A stretch of 18,239 bases of DNA from a virus (taxonomy: Duplodnaviria > Heunggongvirae > Uroviricota > Caudoviricetes): positions 1 to 18,239 of IMG/VR virus record IMGVR_UViG_2713896729_000006; one strand, 5' to 3'. The notes under the pieces were generated by a model, which saw only the letters and a program-made list of their open reading frames with translations, did not search any database and was not told where the DNA came from. The position numbers and the translations under genes were made by a program. This document shows, in pieces, positions 1,327-16,284 of the stretch; position 1 is the stretch's first letter, and every line of letters starts with the position of its first letter.

Positions 1327-1442
1327 TTCCATTAAAAATCAACATATTACAAAATATCATCAACTATTGATCAAGATAGATTTTCATGTATCGTAATACA
1401 CAGTTTAGTCAATGATACAGCAACTACACAGGAGATAAGCCA

Positions 1443-2104: not shown

Positions 2105-2140
2105 TAAATTACAGATTTAATTTTATTGATTTATAGCGAT

Positions 2141-2165
2141 GTTGCCCCGAGAAAAATGGGGCAAC
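2141..2165 (+). terminator. GC-rich hairpin downstream of the AlpA-like gene; possible weak intrinsic terminator or regulatory hairpin
   Basis: GTTGCCCC (2141-2148), 9-nt loop GAGAAAAAT, GGGGCAAC (2158-2165). The downstream U-tract is poor (ACTGAGAAATTT), so efficiency is uncertain. Confidence 0.3.
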
Positions 2166-2222
2166 ACTGAGAAATTTCAGATAGTAGTTTTATATTGAGA
2201 TAACAAAGAGGTTTCCTTAAAA

Positions 2223-3077
2223 ATGTCTAATAGTGTTACTAATTTTGAGATGAGCAGCGTTCTACCAGGAAAAAAACCTTGTCAAGGCAAAAACAATGAG
2301 TCACAGGTAGTACAGACTACTCCCATAAAAAAACACTCAGTCACGTTCAAAAATCAATCTTCATTAGGAGTAATTGATCATTATGCCAGACTAACAAATA
2401 AATCTCACTCTTCCGTAATAGCGGAAGTTGTGGATTTGGCTATCCCTATATTAGAAAAATGCAATCGTCATAACTGGTCAATAAATGAAATAAAAAATGA
2501 CCTGTTAAAGTTCTCTATAAAAGAAAGCATCAATCGAAGCCGAGGTAAAACAGAAGTAACTCTGGAAGAGTACTGTTCGTTAATCTGGAAAACGAACATC
2601 ATGAGTCCATTAAAAATCCCCATTGCAGATTACTTTCAACTGAACGCTAATGATGAATTCATGGGGAAAGATGAAAAAACAGTTATACGTGAAAGGCTAT
2701 CCTCGCTGAGGGAAAATTACGATATGGAAAAAGCCATTTACATTTACAATCAACGACATTTTAATGTAAAGCATCAAAGTGTCTCAGGATATTCAAACAT
2801 TATTCTTATTCATAGAACAACCTTTGAGGATTATTACTTTGATGTCGGGCAGACTCTACTCTTGTCAACATCCCAATTAATTATATTCGGGATAAATGAA
2901 GTTCTTAGAAGAAAGGGGATTGTTATGCCTTATCCGGTTGTTTGTTGGATTGATATTTACCATGTCAATGAGATGGTGGTTATGCTGCCAGTGATCCGTA
3001 AAACAGATGTTTCCAACCGTGTTAATGCACCGGATGACATCATTATAAACCCATACTCACAGGAGAGCAGAACCTAA
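2223..3077 (+). CDS. yagM: Hypothetical protein (284 aa) with a putative N-terminal ribbon-helix-helix-like segment; YagM-like
   Basis: AT-rich ORF with AAAGAGG upstream of the ATG. Residues ~38-75 (HSVTFKNQSSLGVIDHYARLTNKSHSSVIAEVVDLAIPILE) resemble an RHH (CopG/Arc-like) beta-strand plus two helices. Remainder has no recognisable motif. Symbol from recalled size/order only. Confidence 0.6.
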   Translation: MSNSVTNFEMSSVLPGKKPCQGKNNESQVVQTTPIKKHSVTFKNQSSLGVIDHYARLTNKSHSSVIAEVVDLAIPILEKCNRHNWSINEIKNDLLKFSIKESINRSRGKTEVTLEEYCSLIWKTNIMSPLKIPIADYFQLNANDEFMGKDEKTVIRERLSSLRENYDMEKAIYIYNQRHFNVKHQSVSGYSNIILIHRTTFEDYYFDVGQTLLLSTSQLIIFGINEVLRRKGIVMPYPVVCWIDIYHVNEMVVMLPVIRKTDVSNRVNAPDDIIINPYSQESRT

Positions 3078-3103
3078 GAGGTAACAAAGAAGGACAAACA
3101 ATT

Positions 3104-3802
3104 ATGAGAGGTAAAATACTACTTTACCACTCAAAGTATCGCTGGCAATCACGCTCTATTTTTGGTTATTTTTTATACAAAATAACATTATTCAGGTATC
3201 AAAAAATAATTTATGACACCGGAGTGCATCAGATGCGTTCATTTTTTTACACCATATGCAGTAGCGAACAGCAAGAAAGCATTACAGATCATCACTCACT
3301 TGCTGAGATATGCCAAAAATTTAATATTCTACCTGAACATGTTGTGATCGAGCAGGTAGATATTAAAGAGGTTGTTTCAGAGCAACGTTTACTCAGACAA
3401 TTGATTCATCATGAAATGAACCGGCAGGACACGCTTGTCATTCCAGATCTAAGCTGTCTTGGCAGAACTGTGGAGGACTTACAGAATATTTTATTTTTTT
3501 GCCTTCAAAAAGAAATGTTTATCTACAGCTACCATCCAGCTTCAAGGATAGAGCCTTCTGCTGAAAGTTGCTTGTCTTTTTTGATTGCTCGTCAGGATAC
3601 GATTGACATTCACAATCTGAAATCAACTAAAAGCCGATATCGACATGTTAAGAAGAAATTAGGACGAAAGGAGGGAAGCAAATACCGACGTGATATCACA
3701 ATACTTAAGAAAGGTGGATTTACTCAGGCTGAGATTGCAAAGAAATTGAGTATCAGTTTATCGACTGTGAAGCGGCACTGGAATAACGGAATCATCGGTT
3801 AA
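3104..3802 (+). CDS. yagL: Serine-recombinase (resolvase/invertase)-like protein with C-terminal HTH; catalytic arginines substituted, so probably a non-catalytic DNA-binding protein; YagL-like
   Basis: FFYTICSSEQQ aligns to the resolvase YARVSTxxQ motif (Ser retained, Arg replaced by Ile). DTLVIPDLSCLGRT aligns to DTLVVxKLDRLGRS (first Arg replaced). C-terminal GGFTQAEIAKKLSISLSTVKRHW is a resolvase-type HTH. A resolvase-length protein would start at the internal Met at 3233 (MRSFFYT...); the 232-aa ORF from 3104 has the better SD (AAGAAGGA). Confidence 0.7.
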   Translation: MRGKILLYHSKYRWQSRSIFGYFLYKITLFRYQKIIYDTGVHQMRSFFYTICSSEQQESITDHHSLAEICQKFNILPEHVVIEQVDIKEVVSEQRLLRQLIHHEMNRQDTLVIPDLSCLGRTVEDLQNILFFCLQKEMFIYSYHPASRIEPSAESCLSFLIARQDTIDIHNLKSTKSRYRHVKKKLGRKEGSKYRRDITILKKGGFTQAEIAKKLSISLSTVKRHWNNGIIG

Positions 3803-3899
3803 TTCCAGAAGCTAATTGCAGAGTAACTTTTTAACAGCCATCACAGGCTGGGGCTACCTTCGTCTCAAATTTAGATGTTGGATAGGTATTATAATGGCA

Positions 3900-4071
3900 T
3901 TGTGTACTCTTACTACCTGTATTCACCAGTAAGAGTAGTAATCAGATCAGTATATCCGTACTAAGATCTGATACCAGTATATACCGACAACAGTGACCAG
4001 GAATAGCCCTGCCTGTATGGCATCCCTGTACGGTCTGCTATAGACCGTAGGACCAAATACAGGTATATATT
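3900..4071 (+). promoter_or_regulatory. Intergenic control region upstream of the yagK-like gene with three hairpin-forming inverted repeats and reiterated CTGTA/TACAG motifs
   Basis: Inverted repeats TACTCTTACT/AGTAAGAGTA (3905-3914 / 3928-3937), ATCAGATC/GATCTGAT (3941-3948 / 3965-3972) and TACGGTCT/AGACCGTA (4029-4036 / 4042-4049). Motifs CCTGTATTC, CCTGTATGG, CCTGTACGG and ATACAGGTA recur across the region. Confidence 0.4.
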
Positions 4072-4698
4072 ATGAAAACATATCAAGGTACTCATGGAGT
4101 ACATATCCTCGAATATCAGATCAAGATTAAAAAATTATTATGTTATTTGACTAACCGTTACCCCAGGTTAACGGCGGTACGTGTCGATCTGCATTATCCG
4201 AAGATAGTCGATAACGGAGACAATATCTGCTGTTTCCCTAATCTTGAACCAGGGGTGATATCCCGAATGCGTGATTCCCTCAGAGCTAAACTGGAGGCTG
4301 ACCGTACCCGTAAGGAGCGTGAAGGTAAACGCATCTACCGTTGCCCTTTATTTATTATATGGGCGAAAGAGTATTCTGAATCAGGTAAATGCCACTATCA
4401 CATTTGCCTGTTGTTCAACAAAGACGCTTACTACCACCTCGGGGATTACGATCAGCACGATAACCTGAGAGGGATGATTACGGGAGCGTGGTACAGCGCC
4501 CTGAGACTGGAGAGAGACGATCACCCAGGTCTGGTCCATTTTCCTGATAACTGTAAGTACGTGCTGGATACCAATAATGCTGACTTCCAGCATAACTACC
4601 AAGCGCTGTTAACCCGACTGGATTACCTCACCAAAGTCGAAAGCAAAGTGTTTGGTGAAGGAGACCGTAACTTCGGCTGTAGCCAAATCGATCTGTAA
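4072..4698 (+). CDS. yagK: YagK/YfjJ-family protein (inovirus Gp2-like family), 208 aa
   Basis: 208-aa ORF with the Cys/His-rich pattern of this family (CCFPN..., GKCHYHICLLFNKDAYYHLG). Size and position after the recombinase-like gene match yagK (and paralog yfjJ) of K-12 cryptic prophages. Assignment from memory. Confidence 0.65.
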   Translation: MKTYQGTHGVHILEYQIKIKKLLCYLTNRYPRLTAVRVDLHYPKIVDNGDNICCFPNLEPGVISRMRDSLRAKLEADRTRKEREGKRIYRCPLFIIWAKEYSESGKCHYHICLLFNKDAYYHLGDYDQHDNLRGMITGAWYSALRLERDDHPGLVHFPDNCKYVLDTNNADFQHNYQALLTRLDYLTKVESKVFGEGDRNFGCSQIDL

Positions 4699-4707
4699 GT
4701 CGGCAAT

Positions 4708-4737
4708 GGCCTTCTCTTTGTGGGAAGGCCTATTTTA
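4708..4737 (+). terminator. Putative rho-independent terminator after the yagK-like gene
   Basis: GGCCTTC (4708-4714), 9-nt loop, GAAGGCC (4724-4730), followed by TATTTTA (4731-4737). Lies between convergent genes. Confidence 0.5.
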
Positions 4738-4785
4738 CGTCAGAGTTCAATAATATAACCAGCAGATAACCTGCCCCCAGGATCT

Positions 4786-5577
4786 TCAATTTGGTGTGAT
4801 TTTTCCACTTTCAGTCATGATAGCGATTGCTTCGTCGATAGTCTGTGTTGTAAAGAGCGAGTTTTCCCTACAGTCCTTGCGAATCACCTTCCTGTTTTTT
4901 TGCACAGAAATGTTCTCGCACCAAGCTAATGTTTCGGCGGCATGCTTTTCTTCCATGCTAATGTCCAAAAAAGCGAGGCGGCTATCAAGGGATTGCATAT
5001 CCTCATTGACAATTGAAGGACTGGATTCTAGGAGGTTCAAACGGTTTTCAACATCGGCAACCTTGCCTTTCACCTGTGAGACGTCTTCCACCAATTTTTC
5101 ATGTCTGTGGATAGCATCAGCAAGTGCTCGTGAGTTTTGGGCCAATATTTCAGCCATTTGCGCGAGGGCAGATCCTTTTGCTTCTGGCGGTGGTGGATAT
5201 ACTCCATGTTTAGTCAACGATGGTATGACCTCATGGAATAACCATTTTTGAAAGCGCTTACCAGCCGCGCTTCGGTCACTCGACATAACTCGATACAAAC
5301 CTGGTTGGGTGACGAAGATCTCTTTCTGACCTTCAAAAACACCATTTTCAGCATCTGTAGTAATATACTCATCGGGGTCAAGAGCCTGTAATTGCGCCCT
5401 GATTATTCCAGCCATCGATTTTACTGTGTAATCAGCGTTGATTTCTCTATTTTCTTTATTCAGCGTGATTAAAACATCTCGTAGTGAGATATATAGAATC
5501 TCACCAAGTATCAATGTTCTTAGATCACTTTCACCAGTCTCACCACGGTAACATATCTTGGTCAGGTTACTATTCAT
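4786..5577 (-). CDS. Bro-N / antirepressor-like domain protein (263 aa) with coiled-coil C-terminal half
   Basis: N-terminal region with ...FQKWLFHEVIPSLTKHGVY..., matching the Bro-N/KilA-N-type consensus (WV..eVLP.iRk.G.Y). C-terminal half is heptad-like and charged. GTGAGGA lies 3-4 nt before the ATG. Confidence 0.65.
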   Translation of the reverse strand: MNSNLTKICYRGETGESDLRTLILGEILYISLRDVLITLNKENREINADYTVKSMAGIIRAQLQALDPDEYITTDAENGVFEGQKEIFVTQPGLYRVMSSDRSAAGKRFQKWLFHEVIPSLTKHGVYPPPPEAKGSALAQMAEILAQNSRALADAIHRHEKLVEDVSQVKGKVADVENRLNLLESSPSIVNEDMQSLDSRLAFLDISMEEKHAAETLAWCENISVQKNRKVIRKDCRENSLFTTQTIDEAIAIMTESGKITPN

Positions 5578-5632
5578 TGATCCTCACATCGCAAAGTATA
5601 GGCACATTCAAATCAGTATCTTTTTTCCTGTG

Positions 5633-5665
5633 CTGTTCTGAGGTGAGTATATCACCTCAGAACAG
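5633..5665. promoter_or_regulatory. Perfect 14-bp inverted repeat with 5-nt spacer between the end of the operon and the Bro-N gene start; candidate operator and/or RNA hairpin
   Basis: CTGTTCTGAGGTGA (5633-5646), GTATA, TCACCTCAGAACAG (5652-5665). No U-tract follows on either strand, so not a canonical intrinsic terminator. Confidence 0.45.
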
Positions 5666-5691
5666 GTGGCCAAATTCGGTGTGTCACTTCA

Positions 5692-6870
5692 CTATGCCTT
5701 CACCAGTTTCGCAGACATGGGGTCATAAACATACCCAATGATGCTACCATCCTTAATACGTGCAACAGCCTCATCGATAACGAATAACGGAACGAGAAAC
5801 CATTCCTCGGGCTGTACTGGATGGCCGAAACGGTCGTTAATGGTAATGTTAAGCCTTGCGGGTGCAAACAACCTGTGAAACAGGTTTTCCATCCGGGTGC
5901 GGTTGATGCCTGCAAGCTTGTATGAAGCTACTACCTCGACCTTCGCTAACAGATAGGTGGAATCGTGTTCCGCATTGGCAATACGCGCCTCTACTTTGCC
6001 GCCAGTCACTCCAATCTTGTGAATGACATCACGATGTTCAGCTACATAAGGGTTATCAGATAGCGAACGCAACACATAAATGGTGCCACTTTCTAGATCG
6101 CTCTCTTCTAGAGCATCGCTGAATAAAGGCCCCATGTCTGGATCGGTAATTCGGCGTGCTGTTTCGTCTTTATACAAAGCACGAACCAGTGACAGCCGAA
6201 GTAGGTTGCTTTCCGTACCATTCGAGTAAATGACACGCAGTCGAGCATCTTTCTTCCCCTGTGGCGAATCGAACTCTTCACCTTCCTCAGCCACATAAGC
6301 CGTTTGACCATCCAGGATGAACCAATGGCCCACTTCAATCGTTGCATACTGTCCAAAAGGTCGGGTCACTCTTAACCCTGAACTTAGATCACTGCGCACC
6401 TGTTCAAATAGCGGTTTGAATGTATCAAAATCCTCGCACGGCTTGCGATCCGCGATCCCTTGTACAGCACGCTTTTCGGAGCTAGCACGAACATGACGCA
6501 AGACTGTGATATCGTCCTCGCTGGTAACATCCGCCAGTTCGGCAGCCAAATTATCGATATCGATAAATTCGTCCGCTGACTCCGCTCCCTCCCCCCCTCC
6601 GGCCAACAAGCCCTGATGATCCAGCGGCTCTAGCAAGGCACGGCAGTCTGGGAGACTGCGTAGCCGGTCGAGCCGCACTGCATAGAGGCGCTCGAAGATC
6701 TCACGATCTTCGCCGTGTTGCGGCGCACGTCCATGTTGGTCAGCGAAGCGCTGGATTTCCTCAAAACCTGCGATGATGCGTTCCTCGCTGGCTGGACGTC
6801 CTTTTTTCTTCTCCGGTGGTGCAAATTCGGCAAGTTCTGCCGCCAAATCGTCTAAATCAGAATTACTCAT
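5692..6870 (-). CDS. GIY-YIG-like (T5orf172-type) domain protein, about 392 aa; third gene of the methyltransferase-helicase operon (B. subtilis YeeC-like)
   Basis: C-terminal region GTIYVLRSLSDNPYVAEHRDVIHKIGVTGGKVEARIANAEHDSTYLLAKVEV fits the GIY-(x10)-YIG-like/T5orf172 pattern with a following conserved Arg. The ATG at 6870 (MSNSDLDD...) overlaps the helicase stop (ATGAGTAA), so it is preferred over the longer ORF start at 6936. N-terminus carries two copies of a D(L/I)D(D/N)LAAELA(E/D) motif. Confidence 0.65.
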   Translation of the reverse strand: MSNSDLDDLAAELAEFAPPEKKKGRPASEERIIAGFEEIQRFADQHGRAPQHGEDREIFERLYAVRLDRLRSLPDCRALLEPLDHQGLLAGGGEGAESADEFIDIDNLAAELADVTSEDDITVLRHVRASSEKRAVQGIADRKPCEDFDTFKPLFEQVRSDLSSGLRVTRPFGQYATIEVGHWFILDGQTAYVAEEGEEFDSPQGKKDARLRVIYSNGTESNLLRLSLVRALYKDETARRITDPDMGPLFSDALEESDLESGTIYVLRSLSDNPYVAEHRDVIHKIGVTGGKVEARIANAEHDSTYLLAKVEVVASYKLAGINRTRMENLFHRLFAPARLNITINDRFGHPVQPEEWFLVPLFVIDEAVARIKDGSIIGYVYDPMSAKLVKA

Positions 6871-8908
6871 AATGTCCCTCCGCCCTAAAACGCATAAACG
6901 CGGCTGCACCTTCTGCAAGGTGCTTTTCCCAGGCATCCGGCGAAGTTAACGATGGGAGGCGTCCACGTTCACGTTTGAATTCAGCAGCACGCTTGGCGAT
7001 CACTTTGGCATCTTCAGGCGTGATCGAGGTACGCTTGGCCGAGATGGCCGCCGCGACCTGCTTCAAGCTATCTTCGCTCATTGTCTTAGCAAGGATGGCG
7101 TAGGCTTCACCAAAGGGATTGATGCGGTCGATAAGATCTATGTCTAAATCGCGTACGTCCATCGCAAAGCGACGCACTCCGTCAATAAGGGCAGTATTGA
7201 GCGTCCCATCGTTCTCGCCGTTGACAATACGCTTAGCCTGCTGCGTGAGATTAAGGGCGGCAATAGCGTGCTGACGCACAGCCTCCTGATCTTCAGCGCC
7301 AAGTTCAGGGTACTTTTCTTTGATGATCTTCCCCATACGAACCTGTGTTAATTCTTCAGGAATGAGCTCTTCGTCGAACAGTCCACGTTCGATGGCGGGC
7401 TTATCTTGCACAAAAGCCGCGATCACTTCATTTAAATCTTCCTGGCAGATGCGTGCCGCCTCTTTGCTCCTGGGCTCGGCAAGTCCCTTAATCTCGATTT
7501 GATACGTCCCTGTCTGCTCATTAACACCAAAATTGCAGTTATCCGGGTCATACCCTCCTTCACCATAATCAAAACCTGGGGTCGGGCCGCTTTCTGGGTT
7601 CTTAGGCTTGAACTCGAAGCGCGGAGCCAATACTTGCTCCATCAGCAGGCTTGCCGCGATGGCTTTCAAGGTATCGTTGACTGCCTCGGTGACTGCCCCC
7701 TCTACAGCATCCGGCTCGGCGATCAGGTTAGTAAACCTTGCGCGGGTTTTACCCGGCGCGTCGCGAGTGGCGCGACCGATGATCTGCACGATCTCAGTCA
7801 GGCTGGCACGGTAACCAACGGTCAACGCATGTTCGCACCAGATCCAGTCGAAACCTTCCTTCGCCATACCAAGTGCAATAATGATGTCCACATAATCACG
7901 GTCTGTCTTCATTTCTGCAGCACGGAGACTTTCCTGAATCTTGCCTTGGCTGGTTGGGTCCACCAGGTCAGCAATACGTAACACGCGTCCATCGAGGCAT
8001 TTGACTAGCTGAAAACCAGTCACAGGATCCGCTCCTTGCCAATCGCCAAGCTCGCCGAGAATGTGCTCCACCTCTTTGATTTTATCCTTCGTGCTCTCGC
8101 GCGAATTGACGTTGGGAATATGGATAATGGTCTTCTTGTCAGGATCGAGTACATTGAGGATGTCATCGACGTAGGAGCCACTGTAGAAGAAGTAGCCGAT
8201 ATCGAGTTGCTTGAGGTATTCGTAGCCGTTAAGTTGTTCGTAGTAGGTGTAGGTGACGGTATCGAACCTGGACTCATCCTGAGGAGCCAACACGGCCTCC
8301 GCATCACCCCGGAAGTAGGATCCGGTCATGGCAACGATGTGCGTCTTGTCCCGCGCGATAAACTGCCCCAGCTGCTGACCAAGCTTATTATCCGGGTTAG
8401 CTGACACATGGTGGAATTCATCGACCGCGATCAGGCGATCGTCAAACGCTTCTATACCGTAGGCATCGACCGCGAAGCGAAAGGTTGCGTGTGTGCAAAC
8501 AAGCACCTTGTCACTACTTTCAAGAAAAGAGCCAAAAGATCTTACCTTGCCACCGTTGTCGTTACCGGGCGCGTTGCACAGGTTCCACTTAGGTTCGACA
8601 TGCCAATCAGTCCAGAATCCAAACTGCGATAGCGGTTCATCGTTGAAGCTCGCGCCGATAGATTTTTCCGGCACAACGATGATTGCCTGTTTAATCCCTT
8701 GATTTTCGAGTTTGTCGAGTGCGACGAACATCAGAGCACGACTCTTACCGGAGGCGGGCGGCGACTTGATGAGAAGATATTGTTCTCCGCGCTTCTCATA
8801 GGCCCTTTCTTGCATAGGCCGCATCCCAAGAGCATTAGCCTTGGTCGATGCTCCGCTGCGTGAGTAGGTAACGGAAACGGACGGTACTGATTTAATCTTG
8901 TTGCTCAT
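6863..8908 (-). CDS. Superfamily 2 DEAD/DEAH-box helicase/ATPase (681 aa); second gene of the operon (YeeB-like)
   Basis: Walker A (LLIKSPPASGKSRAL), DExH box (LIAVDEFHHV), motif III-like (MTGS) and motif VI (QIIGRATR) in order, then a C-terminal extension of about 300 aa. Start ATG overlaps the methyltransferase stop (ATGA at 8905-8908). Confidence 0.85.
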   Translation of the reverse strand: MSNKIKSVPSVSVTYSRSGASTKANALGMRPMQERAYEKRGEQYLLIKSPPASGKSRALMFVALDKLENQGIKQAIIVVPEKSIGASFNDEPLSQFGFWTDWHVEPKWNLCNAPGNDNGGKVRSFGSFLESSDKVLVCTHATFRFAVDAYGIEAFDDRLIAVDEFHHVSANPDNKLGQQLGQFIARDKTHIVAMTGSYFRGDAEAVLAPQDESRFDTVTYTYYEQLNGYEYLKQLDIGYFFYSGSYVDDILNVLDPDKKTIIHIPNVNSRESTKDKIKEVEHILGELGDWQGADPVTGFQLVKCLDGRVLRIADLVDPTSQGKIQESLRAAEMKTDRDYVDIIIALGMAKEGFDWIWCEHALTVGYRASLTEIVQIIGRATRDAPGKTRARFTNLIAEPDAVEGAVTEAVNDTLKAIAASLLMEQVLAPRFEFKPKNPESGPTPGFDYGEGGYDPDNCNFGVNEQTGTYQIEIKGLAEPRSKEAARICQEDLNEVIAAFVQDKPAIERGLFDEELIPEELTQVRMGKIIKEKYPELGAEDQEAVRQHAIAALNLTQQAKRIVNGENDGTLNTALIDGVRRFAMDVRDLDIDLIDRINPFGEAYAILAKTMSEDSLKQVAAAISAKRTSITPEDAKVIAKRAAEFKRERGRLPSLTSPDAWEKHLAEGAAAFMRFRAEGHYE

Positions 8909-11712
8909 GCATTAGTTCTCACTTTACGCTTCTTGCCTTTGGCCGGTGCAGCAGAAGCGGCCATCTTTATATAAAGATCAAATAGCTTTTCAAGCCGCTC
9001 TGTATCATTCTTAAAGCGACGGCCGATGTAGATGCGCTCCAGTACTTCATCATTGCGATCATGCGCAGCCCGCAGATCAGTAGGCATGTTAGCAGGATCG
9101 TATAGGTCCGCGATGGTCGCGGGAAAATGATGCTCACGCGCCAGAAGTATGTCCTCCGCGCAGCGTGTGAGGTCAGCCTTGTTTTTTTCTGTGAGTTTTG
9201 GTACTGGGAAGGTGTTCCAGCCGAGGGTGTTAGAGTAGCGGTAGCGTGTTTCCAATTTTCCGCAGATGGTGGCGATCCAAACCAGGTGTAGACGAGATGC
9301 AATGAGCGCAAGATTCCAGAGCGGAGCGTCGTAGAGAGCAAAGGCGAGGTTACTGACTACCGAATGATTATCAATCAGTCCAACAGGAAGATACTCGCGC
9401 CCTTCCGATGAAACCCCCGGTAGAATCAGCGTGTGCTTGCCACCGTGATACATTTCGCGAAACTGATGAGCCCGTGATGCTAACTCATTCGTACCAGCAT
9501 CTTTACTTTTGAGCCGCATTTCCCGAACGCCATCAATCCGACCCCGAATAGACGCAATCTCCAAAGCTTGCGGCAATTTTACATCAGGGATCCAGAGGCA
9601 CTTACGTACTACTCCGCGAATAAACTCGGCAGAACCATAGATGCGCCGAAGAAATGTCTCTTCATCCTGCTTGCTCAAACCGAGCGAAACCGCGTCATCC
9701 GCCGATAACAAAAGATTTCCCCCATCGACGGGCATGTTGCCAAAAGACATATCCGGCAGACCCGATATGCTCTTGCGCTGGCCCTCGACTACAACATCCT
9801 CACCAACACTCAGATAGGGCGTGATGTTTGTCGCCTCGCGTACAGTAGTTTGGCCATTGCGGTCCAAGTCGTAAAGTAGCCTTGTCTTACTCACATCCGT
9901 AGATAGGCCGACGATAGCGACTGTTACACCCGCGTTGTGTGCAGCAAGGTTCGTCCATTTGAAGCTGGAGTGCGCGAAGCGAATGTGGGAGCCACATTTG
10001 AAAATTGCTGGCCACAGGATAGGAACAATTCGGCCTTGACAGATAGAGTTGGTGCTAACAAAAGCCGAATCCGTTGGTGTGGCTTGCGCGTAGGCAGCAG
10101 CTTTCATGAACCAACCACCAACATAATCGATTTGTTTAGACGAAATACCATAAGGTTCAAATACCGAAGCCAAATCCGCTTTCTGCTCTTTAGTCTGCGT
10201 TTGGCTACCTTTGTAAGGTGGGTTACCACAGATGTATGTCTCCCCACCTTCGTTCTGAAAGCCAATCTCTGCTTGACCGAGAGGCGTCTCAAAGAGGTTA
10301 TCTGCCTGCAACTTCACGCCAATTCCGGACGGAGGGCAAACGCTCAACCAATCAATCCGCAATGCGTTGCCACATGTAATCCAATTATCATTACGCAGAG
10401 GAAGAAACTCGGCCAGTGCAAGTTTTAGTCCCCGGTACACCACATCGCACTGATACTCAGCAATAACTAGCGCGAGACGGGCAATCTCCGCAGGGAAATC
10501 TCGTATTTCGATCCCGCGAAAGTTGGTAAGAGGGATGTCAGAGGCATTATCCATCTCGCCACGTCGTCGATTAATCTCGGCCTCGATGGCTCGCATTTCC
10601 TTGTACGCAATCACTAAGAAGTTGCCAGATCCACATGCTGGGTCGAATACGCGGATTCGGGCCATACGCTTGCGCAGATTGAGCAGCATGCGCGGATTGT
10701 CACCGGCTTCATCCAGTTTCGCCCGCAGTTCGTCGAGGAATAGTGGGTTAAGCACCTTGAGTATATTGGGGACACTAGTGTAATGCATTCCCAACTCACC
10801 ACGCTCTTCGTCTTCGGTAATGGCCTGAATCATCGAGCCGAATATGTCTGGGTTGATTTTGGTCCAATCCAGATTGCCAACATGTAGAAGATAGGATCGC
10901 GCAATACGGCTGAAGCGCGGTACCTCCTCACTTCCCGAGAAAAGAGCGCCGTTTACATAAGGAAACTCAGCAGCCCAACGCGGGATACCGACAACACTTC
11001 GCTCATCGCGTGGGGTGTTCATTGCACGAAACAACGTGGCGATGACCTCGTGCAAATTAGAAGCGTCGCGCTCACTCATCTGCGCAATAGTGTCAGTAAA
11101 GCGCCCCTTGCCTATAAATATGTCAGTGTCTTCGGCGAAAAAGCAGAAAATTAGACGCGCCATGAACTTGTTCATGTCATGACGACGCCCCGAAGTACCC
11201 CATTCAGGATTGTCTTTTAACAGTTCGACGTACAGGCGGTTCAAACGGCTAGTAGCACGGATGTCAAAGGCGTCTTCGCTGATCTGCCGAACAGTGCTGA
11301 TACCTGCCAATGGCAAAAAGAAGCCGAAGTGATCGGGAAAGTCTTTAAAGGCACAAGCCACAGTCTGACCACTGTTGAGGTCCTCGGCTTCAAAGTATTT
11401 GCCGTCCGTGGCAAGGATGAATTTCGCCTTGGCCTTGCCTGTTGCCGGGCTGGCCTTAAGTGCAGCCAGCATCTGTGTGACTTGGCCCCCTTCACTGGCC
11501 AGAATGTGGATGTTGTTTGTCTGAAGAACACCACCCAAGTCGGACTTATTCGATGCCCCGGCGCGCAGACGTTTGATGGTCGTTTCCTTGTTACCAAAGG
11601 CTTCAAGAAAAGCATAAGGAAACTCTATAGGATCAAAGGGTTGTTCCGCAAGATCCGTGATGGCTTGCTCAATTTCTACGGCGTTCATTTGCGTACAGTT
11701 CTCCATTGGCAT
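8905..11712 (-). CDS. MmeI-family (Type IIL/IIG-like) gamma-class N6-adenine DNA methyltransferase with C-terminal target-recognition region (935 aa); first gene of the operon (YeeA/PglX-like)
   Basis: Motif X-like (LGMHYTSVPNILKVLNPLFLDEL), motif I (VFDPACGSGNFLV) and motif IV (CGNPPYKGSQTQTKEQKADL) in gamma order. Further MmeI-like blocks: RLIFCFFAEDTDIF, FPYVNGALF, LDWTKINPDIFGS, SAFVSTNSICQG, LETRYRYSNTLGWNTFP, LYDPANMPTDLRAAH. The N-terminal 100 residues show no obvious D...ExK nuclease motif by eye. The true start may be the Met at residue 9 (MNAVEIEQ). Confidence 0.88.
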   Translation of the reverse strand: MPMENCTQMNAVEIEQAITDLAEQPFDPIEFPYAFLEAFGNKETTIKRLRAGASNKSDLGGVLQTNNIHILASEGGQVTQMLAALKASPATGKAKAKFILATDGKYFEAEDLNSGQTVACAFKDFPDHFGFFLPLAGISTVRQISEDAFDIRATSRLNRLYVELLKDNPEWGTSGRRHDMNKFMARLIFCFFAEDTDIFIGKGRFTDTIAQMSERDASNLHEVIATLFRAMNTPRDERSVVGIPRWAAEFPYVNGALFSGSEEVPRFSRIARSYLLHVGNLDWTKINPDIFGSMIQAITEDEERGELGMHYTSVPNILKVLNPLFLDELRAKLDEAGDNPRMLLNLRKRMARIRVFDPACGSGNFLVIAYKEMRAIEAEINRRRGEMDNASDIPLTNFRGIEIRDFPAEIARLALVIAEYQCDVVYRGLKLALAEFLPLRNDNWITCGNALRIDWLSVCPPSGIGVKLQADNLFETPLGQAEIGFQNEGGETYICGNPPYKGSQTQTKEQKADLASVFEPYGISSKQIDYVGGWFMKAAAYAQATPTDSAFVSTNSICQGRIVPILWPAIFKCGSHIRFAHSSFKWTNLAAHNAGVTVAIVGLSTDVSKTRLLYDLDRNGQTTVREATNITPYLSVGEDVVVEGQRKSISGLPDMSFGNMPVDGGNLLLSADDAVSLGLSKQDEETFLRRIYGSAEFIRGVVRKCLWIPDVKLPQALEIASIRGRIDGVREMRLKSKDAGTNELASRAHQFREMYHGGKHTLILPGVSSEGREYLPVGLIDNHSVVSNLAFALYDAPLWNLALIASRLHLVWIATICGKLETRYRYSNTLGWNTFPVPKLTEKNKADLTRCAEDILLAREHHFPATIADLYDPANMPTDLRAAHDRNDEVLERIYIGRRFKNDTERLEKLFDLYIKMAASAAPAKGKKRKVRTNA

Positions 11713-11993
11713 GTGACCGCCCTGCTGCTACTGGTGTGCAGTGAACTCATGTCATATCCTAGGTTTTCTTGGAAATTTTTGACCGTAAGTTTAACAGAAT
11801 AGAACCCAGCGCTGTAGCTGATTCAGTCTCAGATCCACGTTTCAGAAAGCCCTATTATGTATTTATGGCGAGAATTTTAGCATTGAGATATTTTCGATAA
11901 AATATACATATTTTCAGCCAATTAAAGACTGCTAAATTCATGGTATATGAGACGCTCGCATGTGAGTAACTTCCGTTCTTATTTCTGGTTTTC
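11713..11993 (-). promoter_or_regulatory. AT-rich intergenic region upstream of the methyltransferase gene; probable promoter region for the operon (elements not mapped)
   Basis: About 280 bp of AT-rich non-coding sequence between the IS66 remnant and the operon start, with no convincing ORF on the operon strand. Confidence 0.3.
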
Positions 11994-13316
11994 TTAAAAC
12001 GTATTAAGGTTGCACCGAATATGGTTTTCCCCGCTGACCCTGACCCGATTGACTGTCCAGTCAGCTATGACGTCAAGCACATGACGAAGGTAGCTTTCTG
12101 GATCCACGCCGTTTAGTTTGCACGTCCCGATCAGACTGTACATCAGCGCTACACGCTCACCTCCGTGGTCTGAGCCGAAGAACAGCCAGTTTTTTCTCCC
12201 CAAACTGACCATCCGCAGCGCATTTTCAGCGATGTTGTTATCGGCTTCTGTCCAGCCATTGCCTGCATAGTGCGTCAGGGCCGGCCACTGGTTAAGGGCG
12301 TACGCGAACGCTTTCGCCAGCTCTGAGTGTCGTGACAGGGTGTTCATCTTTTCACGCAGCCAGCTTTCCAGGGATTTCAGCAGCGGTTTCGCTTTCTGCT
12401 GACGTTCAGCAAGACGTTGCTCCGCCGGCATTCCCCTTATTTCCGCCCCGATGGCATACAACCCGCCGATACGCTTCAGGGCATCCTCCGTCAGCGCCGA
12501 CGGCGTGCGGGCGTACACATCGTGGATTTTACGGCGGGCGTGAGCCCAGCAGGCGGCTTCCGTTATCTGGCCACCGCGGTACAACTCGTTGAATCCTGCA
12601 TACGCATCCGCCTGCAGCACTCCCCTGAAGCCGGCAAGATGGGTCTGCGGGTGGATGGCTTTTCTGTCCGGGCTGTAAGCGAACCACACCGCCGGTGCGA
12701 CTGCTGACCCGGCGTTGCGGTCATCACGAACGTACTTCCACAATCGCCCGGACTTCGTCTTCTTATTGCCCGACAGCAGCATCTGGACCGGGGTATCATC
12801 GACATGGAGTTTGCCGTCGCTCAGGACATAGCCCCGAAGCGCCTCCTCCAGCGGTGACAGCAGCCTGCAGCATGCATCCACCCAGCCCGACAGGAGGGAG
12901 CGGCTCAGTTCCACACCCTGGCGGCTATATATTTCAGACTGGCGGTACAGCGGGGTATGCTCTGCATACTTTGAGCCCAGTACCCGGGCCAGCAGCCCCG
13001 CTCCGGCGATACTCCGCTCGATGGGACGTGAAGGCGCGGGGGCCTGCACGATAGCGTCGCATTTTGTACAGGCGTGTTTTTCCCGCACGGTCCGGATAAC
13101 CCGGAAGGCGCTGCGCATCAGCTCCAGCTGTTCAGCAGTATCTTCACCCAGCCAGCGCAGTGAATCGCCACAGTCCGGGCAGCATGATGCCGCCGACAAC
13201 AGCCGTTTTTCGTCACGAGGGAGTGATTCGGGGAACGGTTTACGGGTGCGGGTCTGGCGAAGCGACCACGCTCCAGCCGTTTGGTCAGCAGACACAGCCT
13301 GTCGCCGGTAGACCAC
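11994..13316 (-). pseudogene. tnpC: IS66-family transposase TnpC, lacking the N-terminal leucine-zipper segment and with an aberrant C-terminus
   Basis: Zinc-finger region (CCPDCGDSL...ACTKCD) and the conserved IS66 core are present. The ORF is about 440 aa against roughly 510-540 aa for intact TnpC, and the last 20 residues do not resemble the family C-terminus. Confidence 0.7.
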
Positions 13317-13486
13317 AGCAATTTTACCTGACTGCCACTGCAGCCCCGGAAGATGAAGACTTGGCCGGACATCGGGTCGTCTTTCAGTGCCGTCTGCACT
13401 TTTGCCGCCAGCCCGTTGAAGCCGTTGCGCATGTCGGTGATACCGGCAACCAGCCAGATTTTAGTGCCTGCAGGAAGATTTATCAT
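13118..13486 (-). pseudogene. tnpB: IS66-family TnpB (orf2), C-terminally aberrant; likely fused to tnpC by an internal deletion
   Basis: MINLPAGTKIWLVAGITDMRNGFNGLAAKVQTALKDDPMSGQVFIFRG...LWSTGDRLCLLTKRLERGRF is canonical IS66 TnpB for about 80 residues. The rest diverges and the ORF overlaps the tnpC frame by about 200 bp. Confidence 0.6.
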
Positions 13487-13866
13487 ACAGTCCCTCGCAT
13501 CAGTTCGCGCAGGACAGTGGTGATGAGTTCAGTTGAGGGATGAGTCAGTGTTATATCTCCGCCCCGACATTTTATGTGACAGGCAGTCTGAGGTGAACAG
13601 GATGGCGGTTCGGGCGTTGGGGGAGATGGCTCTGCCCGAAATTGCACGGGTATGAGAGCAGGAAGCGACGATGCGTTTTTCCGTGGGTGGCAGACCCGCC
13701 CTTCACGTTGCCAGAGCCTTATCCATTTAAAGAGCAGGTTGTCATTGACATCATGTTGTCGGGCCAGCGCAGCAACACTTCCTTCTTTTTCAAGTGCCAG
13801 CCTGACCAGTTCCATTTTAAACTCAGGGGAATATCGTTTTCGGGGAAGTCTTTCTTTGGCGCGCAT
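13483..13866 (-). CDS. tnpA: IS66-family accessory protein TnpA (orf1), 127 aa
   Basis: MRAKERLPRKRYSPEFKMELVRLALEKEGSVAALARQHDVNDNLLFKW... matches the IS66 orf1 pattern. Stop overlaps the tnpB start (ATGA). Confidence 0.8.
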   Translation of the reverse strand: MRAKERLPRKRYSPEFKMELVRLALEKEGSVAALARQHDVNDNLLFKWIRLWQREGRVCHPRKNASSLPALIPVQFRAEPSPPTPEPPSCSPQTACHIKCRGGDITLTHPSTELITTVLRELMRGTV

Positions 13867-14145
13867 TAGGTGTCCACCTGCAAATTAAGTGGGGGCTTAA
13901 GTTACAGGATAGTGGTTTCAGAGCCAGACGTTTTTGAGACAACGCTTACTCTAAACCCAAGCGTAAATGTCTATTATTGGCAAAATACCACCAGCCAACA
14001 TGAGCTGTGATGTAAAGTTGACACTGCTACAGTTACATGAGCCTGTTTATATTCTAAATAAATTCAGATAGATATTATCTCCGTGAATCCCCCGCCTCCC
14101 TGACCGGAGCGCGGGAATTTTTGTTTTTCACGCTGAGAACCCTGT

Positions 14146-14250
14146 ATGAATAAAACTGATGGCCTTCAGGCCCTGGAAAAACCGCTGGCGTCGCTTCCCG
14201 ATACGCTTCGCCAGCTTATTCTTGAACGTATTCAGAATCTGACCCACTAC
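14146..14250 (+). CDS. 5' fragment (35 codons) of an unidentified gene, cut by an N10 run
   Basis: ATG at 14146 opens MNKTDGLQALEKPLASLPDTLRQLILERIQNLTHY, running into the N-run at 14251. Product not recognised. Confidence 0.3.
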
Positions 14251-14260
14251 NNNNNNNNNN
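14251..14260. other. Run of 10 N (gap or masked junction)
   Basis: Exactly ten ambiguous bases separating unrelated sequence blocks. Confidence 0.95.
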
Positions 14261-14335
14261 GCCGTTGCCGAACGTAGGCCGGATAAGGCGTTCACGCCGC
14301 ATCCGGCAATCGGTGCACGATGCCTGATGCGACGC
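14261..14335. repeat. REP/BIME element (E. coli repetitive extragenic palindromic sequences)
   Basis: GTAGGCCGGATAAGGCGTTCACGCCGCATCCGGCA is the reverse complement of the canonical REP unit; a second REP begins at GCCTGATGCGACGC and is cut by the next N-run. Confidence 0.85.
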
Positions 14336-14345
14336 NNNNNNNNNN
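14336..14345. other. Run of 10 N (gap or masked junction)
   Basis: Exactly ten ambiguous bases. Confidence 0.95.
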
Positions 14346-14521
14346 GCCCCTGCAGCGGGTCATAATAGCGGTGGCGGTTGTAATACAGGCCGGACTCCTC
14401 ATCATACTGCTGACCCGGCAGGCGAATGAGCTGCTGCAGATGATGCGGGTTCTCATCACTCAGCAGGTTGCCCCATTCATCATATTCTGCGCACCACGCT
14501 GTTGCCCCTTCCGTGCTGATG
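14346..14521 (-). pseudogene. Fragment of an Rhs/YD-repeat protein core, bounded by N-runs on both sides
   Basis: Minus-strand translation [58 protein letters not shown] contains the Rhs core signature ([10 protein letters not shown]). Confidence 0.8.
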
Positions 14522-14531
14522 NNNNNNNNNN
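14522..14531. other. Run of 10 N (gap or masked junction)
   Basis: Exactly ten ambiguous bases. Confidence 0.95.
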
Positions 14532-14793
14532 CGAGCTGCTGCACCATATTCCTGAACAACTGAGCAAACGAGAGAGGTATACCGACAAATGGCAGCGACG
14601 CACACACTCCCTCTGGCGTCACCGGGCATGGCGCGCATCTGCCTTTACGGGGATTTACAACGATTTGGCCGCCGCATCGACCTTCGTGTGAAAACGGGGG
14701 CTGAAGCCATTCGGGCGCTGGCCACACAGCTCCCGGCGTTTCGTCAGAAACTGAGCGACGGCTGGTATCAGGTACGGATTGCCGGGCAGGATG
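14532..14793 (+). pseudogene. Second, divergent copy of a lambdoid tail K 3' end and I 5' end, bounded by N-runs
   Basis: Encodes ...ELLHHIPEQLSKRERYTDKWQRRTHSLWRHRAWRASAFTGIYNDLAAASTFV (K C-terminus) and, overlapping, MAATHTLPLASPGMARICLYGDLQRFGRRIDLRVKTGAEAIRALATQLPAFRQKLSDGWYQVRIAGQD (I N-terminus). Near-identical to 16832-17094 with roughly a dozen substitutions counted by eye. Confidence 0.8.
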
Positions 14794-14803
14794 NNNNNNN
14801 NNN
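14794..14803. other. Run of 10 N (gap or masked junction)
   Basis: Exactly ten ambiguous bases. Confidence 0.95.
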
Positions 14804-15212
14804 ATCAGGCGGTACAGCCATTCAGGCCGCTGCGGCGAAATTCCATTTTGCAACCGGAGGATTTACGGGAACCGGCGGCAAATATGAGCCAGCGGGGATT
14901 GTTCACCGTGGTGAATTTGTCTTCACGAAGGAGGCAACCAGCCGGATTGGTGTCGGCAACCTGTACCGCCTGATGCGGGGCTATGCGGAAGGTGGTTATG
15001 TGGGCGGTGCCGGAAGTCCGGCGCAGATGCGGCGGGCTGAAGGCATTAATTTTAATCAGAACAATCACGTGGTGATTCAGAACGACGGTACGAATGGTCT
15101 GCCAGGTCCACAGATGATGAAGGCGGTGTATGACATGGCCCGCAAGGGTGCCCGTGATGAAATCCAGGCACAGATGCGCGATGGTGGTCTGTTCTCCGGA
15201 GGTGGACGATGA
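14804..15212 (+). CDS. H: Lambda-like tail tape measure protein H, C-terminal fragment (5' end missing at the N-run)
   Basis: In-frame translation ...GGFTGTGGKYEPAGIVHRGEFVFTKEATSRIGVGNLYRLMRGYAEGGYVGG...MRDGGLFSGGGR matches the C-terminal end of lambda gpH. Stop overlaps the M start (ATGA). Confidence 0.8.
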
Positions 15213-16236: not shown

Positions 16237-16284
16237 ATCCCATGACAGAGACAGAATCAGCGATTCTGGCGCACGCCCGGCGAT

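What the first reader, a model, noticed from the sequence alone, without database searches (positions are those of the whole stretch)
5692..11712. Coupled three-gene operon: MmeI-family methyltransferase, SF2 helicase, GIY-YIG-like protein - candidate split restriction-type defence system
Three minus-strand genes are packed with overlapping stop/start codons (ATGA at 8905-8908; ATGAGTAA at 6863-6870), implying co-translation and a fixed stoichiometry. The first product has a gamma-class N6-adenine methyltransferase core plus a C-terminal target-recognition region with many MmeI-like blocks. The second is a complete SF2 DExH motor. The third ends in a GIY-YIG/T5orf172-like nuclease-type domain. 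Together these supply the three activities (specificity/methylation, ATP-driven motor, nuclease) that Type ISP and Type I restriction enzymes combine, but on separate polypeptides. Sizes and order (935/681/392 aa) resemble the uncharacterised Bacillus subtilis yeeA-yeeB-yeeC triad as I recall it. The operon sits in an integrase-bearing island next to IS remnants, a typical defence-island context. I cannot place it in a named, experimentally characterised system from memory.
Basis: partly seen in the sequence, partly recalled or inferred. Interest (0 to 1): 0.88.

Follow-up and report, generated by a model that had tools for sequence, protein, structure and literature searches.

The report
YeeA/YeeB/YeeC-type split restriction-like operon
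The three genes are real and form an E. coli copy of the known but still mechanistically unsolved YeeA(DnmA)/YeeB/YeeC cluster: an MmeI-like DNA methyltransferase that has lost its own nuclease motif, followed by a tightly coupled helicase and GIY-YIG nuclease, most likely an ATP-driven restriction-type defence.

Summary
Three intact minus-strand genes (8905-11712, 6863-8908, 5692-6870) overlap by ATGA and ATGAGTAA. They encode a five-domain MmeI-like N6-adenine methyltransferase, an SF2 DExH helicase and a T5orf172/GIY-YIG protein. They lie in an intF (CP4-6-type) island next to an IS66 remnant.

Morgan et al. 2009 described MmeI homologues without the PD-ExK motif, always flanked by a helicase and a GIY-YIG gene (B. 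subtilis YeeA/B/C). YeeA (DnmA) makes m6A at GACGAG. No restriction was found in B. subtilis, while yeeAB inactivation in Vibrio crassostreae abolished resistance to some phages.

- MmeI E80/K82 have no counterpart in this protein or its relatives.
- In 64 loci from many phyla the three genes keep the same order.
- The 8-nt helicase/nuclease overlap recurs in 61 of 77 loci.
- The target-recognition domain is the least conserved part (23-50% identity between two E. coli alleles), while helicase and nuclease stay above 96%.
- The core residues of the GIY-YIG-type domain do not vary.
- 40 of 64 loci carry other defence genes between the methyltransferase and the helicase.

Verdict: a new member of a known, poorly characterised kind. 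Moderate interest.

The parts
8905..11712 (-). YeeA/DnmA-type MmeI-like N6-adenine DNA methyltransferase gene (935-aa ORF; the likely true start is the ATG at 11688, giving 927 aa)
   Evidence: Five MmeI Pfam domains. 501 bits to MmeI 5hr4, but only from residue 96 onward. The PADLOC model REase_MTase_IIG PDLC03598 scores 940 bits over the full length. RefSeq start and family conservation both begin at M9.
11212..11688 (-). N-terminal domain (aa 9-167): a relative of the MmeI nuclease domain without the E-x-K catalytic residues. Proposed docking or signalling domain for the helicase and nuclease.
   Evidence: MmeI D70 aligns with D58. MmeI E80/K82 align with I70/A72 (MAFFT) or L71/S73 (hhalign). 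Positions 71-75 are not conserved in 53 homologues, whereas SD.GGVLQ..NIHI is. The N-terminal 169 aa alone give no MmeI hit.
10939..11181 (-). MmeI-type helical spacer (aa 178-258)
   Evidence: Pfam MmeI_hel, 3.8e-26.
9871..10716 (-). Gamma-class N6-adenine methyltransferase domain (aa 333-614) with FDPACGSGNFL (SAM-binding motif) and GNPPY (catalytic motif)
   Evidence: Pfam MmeI_Mtase, 9.5e-113. Both motifs are visible in the translation and in the alignment to MmeI.
9193..9804 (-). Target-recognition domain (aa 637-840), the hypervariable specificity module
   Evidence: Pfam MmeI_TRD, 8.9e-82. Only 23-50% identity between two E. coli alleles whose flanking parts are about 90% identical. Least conserved block in 53 homologues, 0.37-0.56.
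8962..9189 (-). MmeI-type C-terminal helical bundle (aa 842-917)
   Evidence: Pfam MmeI_C, 3e-17.
8905..8908 (-). ATGA stop/start overlap between methyltransferase and helicase
   Evidence: Read directly. The same 4-nt overlap occurs in 22 related loci; most of the other loci carry inserted cargo genes at this junction.
6863..8908 (-). YeeB-type SF2 DExH helicase/translocase gene (681 aa): RecA-like core at about aa 29-400, conserved C-terminal region aa 430-681 of unknown fold
   Evidence: Pfam DEAD and ResIII. Motifs I, II, III and VI are invariant. No solved relative by sequence. A homologue is named 'restriction/modification system component YeeB' by a source.
6863..6870 (-). ATGAGTAA overlap (8 nt) between helicase stop and nuclease start
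   Evidence: Read directly. The identical 8-nt overlap occurs in 61 of 77 related loci, and 75 of 77 overlap.
5692..6870 (-). YeeC-type protein gene (392 aa): N-terminal helical module (aa 27-83), SH3-like beta-barrel (aa ~148-245), C-terminal T5orf172/GIY-YIG-type nuclease domain (aa 260-392)
11713..12043 (-). AT-rich upstream region shared with other carriers of the operon; presumed to hold the promoter (not identified)
   Evidence: Identity to ECC-1470 and CFSAN051542 runs to 12043, and to strain 2013C-4282 beyond it. The simple sigma-70 scan found no minus-strand site here.

Best explanation
This is an E. coli member of the YeeA(DnmA)/YeeB/YeeC family, a three-protein, ATP-dependent, restriction-modification-like defence carried on a mobile island.

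Proposed mechanism:
1. The MmeI-like methyltransferase recognises a short asymmetric site through its swappable target-recognition domain (TRD). It methylates one adenine on one strand, which marks self DNA.
2. Its N-terminal domain is a relative of the MmeI nuclease domain that has lost the E-x-K catalytic residues. It no longer cuts. Instead it couples the methylation state of the bound site to the other two proteins.
3. On an unmethylated site it engages the SF2 helicase, which uses ATP to move along the DNA, either as a Type I/ISP-like translocase or a Type III-like slider.
4. The helicase brings the GIY-YIG-type nuclease, which is made in fixed ratio with it through the 8-nt overlap, to cut the DNA.
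5. Because only one strand is marked, cutting probably needs two unmodified sites in a particular relative orientation, as in Type III, Type ISP and MANTIS systems.

Shown here: gene anatomy, domain content, loss of the nuclease motif, conservation of catalytic residues, co-conservation, coupling and TRD variability.
Shown by others for homologues: m6A at an asymmetric site (B. subtilis DnmA) and phage resistance (Vibrio yeeAB).
Inferred: complex formation, the role of the N-terminal domain, translocation, cleavage, and the orientation rule.
For: Domain architecture. MmeI aligns only from residue 96 onward, and E80/K82 have no counterpart.

Literature:
- The cluster and this model were proposed by Morgan 2009.
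- DnmA makes m6A at GACGAG.
- Synteny of dnmA, helicase and T5orf172 genes.
- Single-gene inactivation in V. crassostreae showed that yeeAB mediates resistance to one phage group.
- T5orf172 belongs to the GIY-YIG superfamily, and the ICP1 T5orf172 protein Gp88 is reported there as an origin-directed nuclease (section heading).
- The orientation logic for hemimethylating systems.

- 64 loci from many phyla hold the full methyltransferase and helicase upstream of the nuclease on the same strand; only one locus (L068) is degraded.
- The 8-nt helicase/nuclease overlap is identical in 61 of 77 loci.
- The TRD is the least conserved part within E. coli and across the family, while the helicase (96%) and nuclease (98.5%) are nearly invariant.
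- Helicase motifs and the core residues of the GIY-YIG-type domain are invariant.
- The YeeC C-terminal domain matches SLX1 GIY-YIG folds.
- The locus occurs in 100 of 5426 complete E. coli genomes and its nuclease gene on 202 plasmids, but in none of 50,697 phage records.
- Known defence genes are inserted inside the operon in 40 of 64 loci.
Against: - No enzyme of this family has been shown to cut DNA. YeeA and MslORFHP expressed alone had no endonuclease activity.
- In B. subtilis the cluster gave no restriction of plasmid transformation, no protection against three phages, and no depletion of the motif in phage genomes.
- The Vibrio result is reported for yeeAB only; I saw no data on the nuclease gene.
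- The helicase has no solved relative, and my model of it was poor (pLDDT 57). Translocase versus switch therefore cannot be decided.
- The second tyrosine of the classical GIY-YIG motif is H/Y/I/V in this family.
- No promoter was identified.
- The recognition sequence of this allele is unknown.
Confidence: 0.65

Rival explanations
1. Relic system. The methyltransferase works as an orphan epigenetic enzyme that affects gene expression, and the helicase and nuclease genes are inactive passengers, as concluded for B. subtilis dnmA-yeeB-yeeC.
For: B. subtilis data: no restriction of plasmid uptake, no phage protection, no motif avoidance, and effects on gene expression.
Against: All three E. coli ORFs are intact and identical in two complete genomes. 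Catalytic residues of the helicase and nuclease are invariant across phyla. The 8-nt coupling is conserved. The helicase and nuclease are more conserved than the methyltransferase, which is not expected for decaying passengers. The TRD diversifies as in active restriction-modification systems. Vibrio knock-outs lose phage resistance. The mBio authors note that the B. subtilis YeeB and YeeC lack C-terminal stretches present in the Vibrio proteins.
Confidence: 0.15
2. A self-contained Type IIG/IIL enzyme, as defence-finder models label it. The methyltransferase protein itself cuts DNA like MmeI, and the two downstream genes are unrelated neighbours.
For: The PADLOC model REase_MTase_IIG PDLC03598 matches the whole protein at 940 bits, and all five MmeI Pfam domains are present.
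Against: MmeI E80/K82 have no counterpart, and that stretch is not conserved in the family. YeeA-group proteins showed no endonuclease activity. The helicase and nuclease genes accompany the methyltransferase in essentially every locus and are translationally coupled.
Confidence: 0.03
3. The coupled helicase-nuclease pair is the real effector and acts independently of methylation status, for example by sensing phage replication structures, causing abortive infection, or stabilising the island or plasmid. The methyltransferase would serve another role or only protect against a side activity.
For: The helicase-nuclease junction is far more rigid than the methyltransferase-helicase junction, which tolerates 0.3-3.7 kb of inserted genes. 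The cluster sits on mobile islands and 202 plasmids. No motif avoidance was seen in Bacillus phages.
Against: The methyltransferase is present upstream in 64 of 65 loci with enough DNA. Its nuclease-less N-terminal domain is strongly conserved, which suggests a retained partner-related function. TRD diversification implies that sequence specificity matters to the system. In Vibrio the phenotype was assigned to yeeAB together.
Confidence: 0.12

Closest known systems
B. subtilis DnmA(YeeA)/YeeB/YeeC cluster and its homologues (Morgan et al. 2009; Nye et al. 2020; Fernandez et al. 2023; V. crassostreae yeeAB in Piel et al. 2021)
   Same: Same three gene types in the same order and orientation: an MmeI-like methyltransferase without the PD-ExK motif, an SF2 helicase, and a T5orf172/GIY-YIG protein. 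Same island-borne context. Same proposed Type I-like mechanism with single-strand modification.
   Different: The E. coli proteins are longer than I recall the B. subtilis ones to be, and the mBio authors say the B. subtilis YeeB and YeeC lack C-terminal stretches. I could not align directly to the B. subtilis sequences. The recognition sequence of this allele is unknown, and its TRD differs even from other E. coli alleles.
MmeI, Type IIL/IIG restriction-modification enzyme (PDB 5hr4)
   Same: Helical spacer, gamma-class N6-adenine methyltransferase domain, TRD and C-terminal bundle are homologous (501 bits, residues 96-929). Modification of one strand is likely shared.
   Different: The catalytic E80/K82 are absent and the first ~95 residues do not align. 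Helicase and nuclease partner genes are obligatory, whereas no particular genes flank the true MmeI family.
Type ISP enzymes LlaGI/LlaBIII
   Same: Same set of activities: nuclease, SF2 motor, gamma-class adenine methyltransferase and TRD. Asymmetric sites modified on one strand. The orientation-dependent logic is probably shared.
   Different: Those are single polypeptides with an Mrr/PD-ExK nuclease. Here there are three polypeptides with a GIY-YIG-type nuclease. No sequence-level similarity of the helicase to any solved chain was detected. LlaBIII appeared only at rank 26 in a search with a low-confidence model.
Type I restriction-modification (HsdM/HsdS/HsdR)
   Same: Separate subunits and an ATP-dependent SF2 motor. 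Other defence genes are embedded inside the operon; that this resembles hsd loci is from my own knowledge. EcoR124I HsdR was the top Foldseek hit of the low-confidence helicase model (weak evidence).
   Different: There is no separate specificity subunit. Nuclease and motor are on different proteins. The nuclease is GIY-YIG-type rather than PD-ExK. The site is presumably asymmetric and contiguous, with one methylated strand.
MANTIS (formerly Gao_RL), MtsABCD (bioRxiv 10.64898/2026.09.23.753747)
   Same: A methylation-based defence that hemimethylates short asymmetric sites and uses a helicase-nuclease effector with site-orientation preference.
   Different: [quoted passage not shown] None of these is present here, and PADLOC models gave no hit for the helicase or nuclease.

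Membership tests
YeeA/YeeB/YeeC (DnmA) three-gene cluster | Methyltransferase similar to MmeI over most of its length but differing in the first ~100 residues and lacking the PD-ExK motif | tested here: met
   Alignment to MmeI starts at residue 96. The N-terminus alone gives no hit. E80/K82 have no counterpart.
YeeA/YeeB/YeeC (DnmA) three-gene cluster | DEAD-superfamily helicase gene immediately downstream on the same strand | tested here: met
   6863-8908 overlaps the methyltransferase stop by 4 nt. Pfam DEAD and ResIII. A homologue is named YeeB by a source.
YeeA/YeeB/YeeC (DnmA) three-gene cluster | Third gene with GIY-YIG/T5orf172 motifs directly after the helicase gene | tested here: met
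   5692-6870, with an 8-nt overlap. Pfam T5orf172 and MUG113.
YeeA/YeeB/YeeC (DnmA) three-gene cluster | The three genes are co-conserved across genomes | tested here: met
   64 loci have the full methyltransferase and helicase upstream of the nuclease gene, and one is degraded.
YeeA/YeeB/YeeC (DnmA) three-gene cluster | Direct sequence homology to the B. subtilis YeeA, YeeB and YeeC proteins themselves | not tested
   No B. subtilis sequences could be obtained with the remaining tool quotas. The closest bridges are Bacillales loci L052 (Tumebacillus) and L057 (Paenibacillus) with the same arrangement.
YeeA/YeeB/YeeC (DnmA) three-gene cluster | m6A on one strand of an asymmetric site | not testable with these tools
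   Needs SMRT or nanopore methylome data. Shown only for B. subtilis DnmA.
MmeI family (Type IIL/IIG restriction-modification enzyme) | Conserved D70, E80 and K82 of the PD-ExK nuclease in the N-terminal domain | tested here: not met
   D58 aligns with D70, but E80/K82 align with I70/A72 or L71/S73, and positions 71-75 are not conserved in 53 homologues.
MmeI family (Type IIL/IIG restriction-modification enzyme) | Gamma-class N6-adenine methyltransferase motifs, MmeI-type TRD and C-terminal bundle | tested here: met
   Pfam MmeI_Mtase, MmeI_TRD and MmeI_C. FDPACGSGNFL and GNPPY are present.
MmeI family (Type IIL/IIG restriction-modification enzyme) | Stand-alone gene without conserved partner genes | tested here: not met
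   Helicase and nuclease genes are present in essentially all related loci. The contrast with the true MmeI family is stated.
Type ISP restriction-modification | Nuclease, motor, methyltransferase and TRD in a single polypeptide, with an Mrr-type nuclease | tested here: not met
   Three separate ORFs and a GIY-YIG-type nuclease.
MANTIS / Gao_RL | AAA+ ATPase MtsA and co-regulator MtsB, plus a fused helicase-nuclease MtsD | tested here: not met
   No such genes lie between 5577 and 11994. PADLOC gave no significant hit for the nuclease and only marginal PbeA hits for the helicase.
BREX / DISARM | PglX- or DrmMI-type methyltransferase reaching the family thresholds, together with the other system genes | tested here: not met
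   NCBIfam PglX models score 21-27 bits against cut-offs of 400-900. DrmMI hits are partial. No other BREX or DISARM genes are in the window.
GIY-YIG nuclease superfamily (for the third protein) | Profile match to a GIY-YIG-clan family, and conservation of the first Tyr, the Arg and the Glu | tested here: met
   T5orf172 scores 43.9 bits (cut-off 20) and MUG113 51.2 bits (cut-off 22.3). Y265, R296, E328 and E356 are invariant in 42 homologues. T5orf172 is placed in the superfamily.
GIY-YIG nuclease superfamily (for the third protein) | GIY-YIG fold | tested here: inconclusive

The most novel reading that the evidence does not exclude
The YeeABC-type cluster is a distinct, still undefined class of ATP-dependent restriction system. 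A catalytically dead MmeI-type nuclease domain has become the switch that hands unmethylated sites to a translationally coupled helicase/GIY-YIG effector. The methyltransferase-helicase junction doubles as a slot that collects other defence genes. This intact E. coli allele is active and would allow the mechanism to be solved, including the rule that prevents self-cutting after replication.
Probability: 0.5. Interest if true: 0.6.

Novelty: new member of a known kind. Interest (0 to 1): 0.42.

Why it matters
The family is very widespread. More than 587 species genomes matched in one capped scan, along with 202 plasmids and about 2% of complete E. coli genomes. Automated tools label it a one-gene Type IIG enzyme.

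Seventeen years after it was first noticed, nobody has shown how, or even whether, it cuts DNA, and the two published functional tests disagree (B. subtilis negative, Vibrio positive). An intact copy in E. coli, together with natural alleles that differ only in the recognition domain, is a convenient system to settle this. It would also test how a system that methylates one strand avoids attacking its own newly replicated DNA.

Two further points bear on how defence islands are built and annotated: the helicase and nuclease are held in a fixed, coupled arrangement, and the methyltransferase-helicase junction collects other defence genes.

Tried and rejected
- PDB sequence searches with the helicase and the third protein, as single sequences and as profiles, gave nothing usable.
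- The AlphaFold2 model of the helicase was poor (mean pLDDT 57) because only close homologues were allowed in the alignment. Its Foldseek ranking (EcoR124I HsdR first, TM about 0.2) is only a hint.
One Pfam call and one alignment call failed on off-by-one or frameshifted coordinates.
- PADLOC and NCBIfam have no model for the helicase or the nuclease.
- The promoter/terminator scan found fewer sites than in shuffled sequence and none upstream of the operon.
- Literature searches for a newer named system matching this triad found none. MANTIS, ARMADA, BREX and DISARM were considered and rejected as memberships. The E. coli PD- systems paper mentions a GIY-YIG nuclease only in an unrelated context.
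- I did not attempt to predict the recognition sequence from the TRD.

Full report
**1. Observation**

The window holds three long minus-strand ORFs at 8905-11712 (935 aa), 6863-8908 (681 aa) and 5692-6936. The third has an internal ATG at 6870 that gives the 392-aa product, which is also what RefSeq annotates.

ATGA at 8905-8908 joins the first two genes. ATGAGTAA at 6863-6870 joins the second and third.

One correction applies. Conservation among 53 homologues and the RefSeq annotation both begin at the ATG at 11688. The first protein is therefore more likely 927 aa.

**2. What the proteins are**

*Protein 1* matches all five Pfam domains of MmeI: N-terminal domain, helical spacer, methyltransferase, target-recognition domain (TRD) and C-terminal bundle.
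- It aligns to the MmeI chain of PDB 5hr4 at 501 bits, but only from its residue 96 (MmeI 108) onward.
- Its first 169 residues alone find no MmeI match.
- I recovered the MmeI N-terminal sequence from the PDB entry and aligned it. MmeI D70 pairs with D58. The catalytic E80 and K82 pair with I70/A72 (MAFFT) or L71/S73 (hhalign).
- In 53 homologues the stretch 71-75 is not conserved, whereas the surrounding SD.GGVLQ..NIHI is.
- The SAM-binding motif (FDPACGSGNFL) and the catalytic motif (GNPPY) of the methyltransferase are intact.

*Protein 2* passes the Pfam cut-offs for DEAD and ResIII. It carries SF2 motifs I, II (DEFHH), III and VI, which are invariant in two independent alignments.

*Protein 3* matches T5orf172 and MUG113 at residues 262-372.
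- A good AlphaFold2 model (mean pLDDT 85.8) shows three domains: a helical N-terminal module, an SH3-like barrel and the C-terminal T5orf172 domain.
- In 42 diverse homologues Y265, K285, G287, R296, E328, E356 and W357 never vary.
- Foldseek did not find them, so the fold evidence is moderate.

**3. Context**

Window 1-12043 is 99.98% identical to E. coli ECC-1470. There the genes are annotated intF, yagN, ykgV, yagM, yagL, yagK, a BRO-N protein, a GIY-YIG nuclease family protein, a DEAD/DEAH box helicase and a class I SAM-dependent DNA methyltransferase. This is a CP4-6-type island.

In strain 2013C-4282 the same yagM-yagL-yagK-BRO-N-triad-IS66 module sits in a different island, next to ssrA and intA. 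The module is therefore mobile.

Distribution:
- The locus is present in 100 of 5426 complete E. coli genomes, always on the chromosome.
- Relatives of the third gene occur on 202 plasmids, 90 of them conjugative.
- None was found in 50,697 phage records.

**4. It is a known cluster**

Morgan et al. 2009 (PMC2731913) split MmeI homologues into two sets. One set has the PD-ExK motif. The other lacks it and differs in the first 100 residues. Members of the second set, such as B. subtilis YeeA, are 'invariably' flanked by a DEAD-type helicase (YeeB-like) and a protein with GIY-YIG motifs (YeeC-like).

The authors speculated that the N-terminal domain now contacts separate helicase and nuclease subunits, in a Type I-like system that modifies one strand. 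YeeA and MslORFHP expressed alone had no endonuclease activity.

Later experimental work:
- Nye et al. 2020 (PMC7261158) showed that YeeA, renamed DnmA, makes m6A at non-palindromic GACGAG. They found no restriction of plasmid transformation.
- Fernandez et al. 2023 (PMC9973331) confirmed the conserved synteny. They found no protection against three phages and no motif avoidance, and called the B. subtilis cluster a relic. They noted that the B. subtilis YeeB and YeeC lack C-terminal stretches present in Vibrio homologues.
- Piel et al. 2021 (bioRxiv 10.1101/2021.05.05.442762) found by single-gene inactivation that yeeAB mediates resistance of V. crassostreae 7F1_18 to one group of phages.

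I found no paper that defines the mechanism or gives the system a newer name. PADLOC has no model for the helicase or the nuclease. It matches the methyltransferase full-length to a 'Type IIG' model, so automated tools will mislabel the locus as a single-gene enzyme.

**5. New comparative evidence**

A profile of the third protein retrieved 587 or more species genomes; the 80 best were kept. They come from Proteobacteria, Bacillales, Bacteroidota, Acidobacteria, Nitrospira, Verrucomicrobia and others.

*Gene order.* Wherever upstream DNA exists, the helicase gene lies immediately upstream and the MmeI-like methyltransferase further upstream on the same strand. Sixty-four loci hold both in full, and only L068 is degraded.

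*Coupling.* The helicase-nuclease junction is the same 8-nt overlap in 61 of 77 loci and overlaps in 75 of 77. These two proteins behave as one coupled unit.

*Conservation.* The helicase is strikingly conserved across phyla, with a mean column identity of 83%.

*Specificity domain.* The methyltransferase TRD is the least conserved block of the family (0.37-0.56, against 0.8-0.96 elsewhere). Between two E. coli alleles it drops to 23-50% identity. The rest of that protein is about 90% identical, the helicase 96% and the nuclease 98.5%. This pattern is what one expects when sequence specificity is under diversifying selection and the effector is held constant.

**6. Mechanism**

The best-supported reading is the one in the Best explanation section. 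It has four elements:
- site recognition and one-strand methylation by the MmeI-like protein;
- a nuclease-dead N-terminal domain that reports an unmethylated site;
- an ATP-driven helicase;
- a GIY-YIG-type nuclease delivered in fixed ratio with the helicase.

The need for an orientation rule follows from hemimethylation, as set out for Type III, Type ISP and MANTIS systems.

Whether the motor translocates like HsdR or slides like a Type III Res subunit cannot be decided. The helicase has no solved relative by sequence. My model of it was poor (pLDDT 57). Its top Foldseek hits (EcoR124I HsdR first, LlaBIII at rank 26) have TM scores near 0.2 and are only a hint.

**7. Rivals**

- The relic/orphan-methylase reading rests on the B. 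subtilis data. It fits badly with the invariant catalytic residues, the conserved coupling and the TRD turnover.
- The stand-alone Type IIG reading fails on the missing E-x-K and on the obligatory partner genes.
- A methylation-independent helicase-nuclease effector is not excluded. It draws some support from the loose methyltransferase-helicase junction.

**8. Verdict**

The locus is a new member of a cluster recognised since 2009, so the novelty is limited. It remains of moderate interest because the mechanism is unsolved, the two functional studies disagree, and this intact E. coli allele, with natural TRD variants, is a practical system for resolving it.

Noticed in passing
Related loci L003-L082, between the methyltransferase and helicase genes (equivalent to window 8905-8908): In 40 of 64 loci the methyltransferase-helicase junction is not a 4-nt overlap. 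It holds 0.3-3.7 kb of extra same-strand genes: RhuM (8 loci), SLFN AlbA_2 + HATPase_c_4 (7), YhcG/DUF1016 PDDEXK (6), GmrSD, AbiEii, Shedu SduA_C, and ORFs that look like PIN-domain and zeta-toxin/AAA proteins (not scanned). Several families have no Pfam match (263, 277, 443 and 348 aa). The junction behaves as a slot that collects other defence genes.
   Followed up: partly
window 6866-6990 (helicase aa ~639-666) and 6676-6762 (third protein aa ~37-65): The helicase C-terminus and the N-terminus of the GIY-YIG protein share a short motif (F..ERGR.P......E..+A). hhalign gives E 7e-5 and probability 63%, against 0.1-0.3 for control segments. Both stretches are confidently helical in the models. 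They may be a common docking module.
   Followed up: partly
window 4786-5577 (-): A BRO-N domain gene lies directly downstream of the triad on the same strand. It travels with the triad, together with yagM/yagL/yagK, in two different E. coli islands, one at intF and one at ssrA-intA. Whether it belongs to the system is unknown.
   Followed up: no
window 5633-5665: A perfect 14-bp inverted repeat with a 5-nt loop (CTGTTCTGAGGTGA-TATAC-TCACCTCAGAACAG) lies between the third gene's stop and the BRO-N start. No T-run follows it. It overlaps a promoter-like site whose -10 hexamer lies in the loop. It could be an operator or an RNA hairpin.
   Followed up: no
window 12044-18239: Right of 12043 the window departs from ECC-1470 and CFSAN051542, which continue into a Y-family polymerase gene. 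The window instead carries an IS66 transposase remnant, as in strain 2013C-4282. Further right there are five runs of exactly 10 N (14251-14803 and 17838-17847), fragments with an Rhs-like sequence, and lambda-type tail genes L and K. The tail-protein N-terminus MAATHTLPLASPG... occurs twice (14589 and 16884). This part looks like short contigs stitched together.
   Followed up: partly
window 3104-3802 (+), yagL: RefSeq annotates this as an 'ECF-type sigma factor'. Pfam instead gives a weak Resolvase N-terminal hit plus a C-terminal HTH, and another RefSeq record calls the interrupted copy a 'recombinase family protein'. It is probably a degenerate serine recombinase rather than a sigma factor.
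   Followed up: no
PADLOC model PDLC03598 versus window 8905-11712: A defence-finder model labelled 'Type IIG restriction enzyme-methyltransferase' matches this nuclease-motif-less protein end to end at 940 bits. Automated annotation will therefore call YeeA-type loci single-gene Type IIG systems and miss the helicase and nuclease.
   Followed up: partly
L073 (Methanoregulaceae MAG contig JADZEW010000036.1): A 4-kb contig assigned to an archaeal bin encodes the helicase at 82% and the third protein at 61% identity to the E. coli proteins. This is either recent transfer into an archaeon or a binning error.
   Followed up: no
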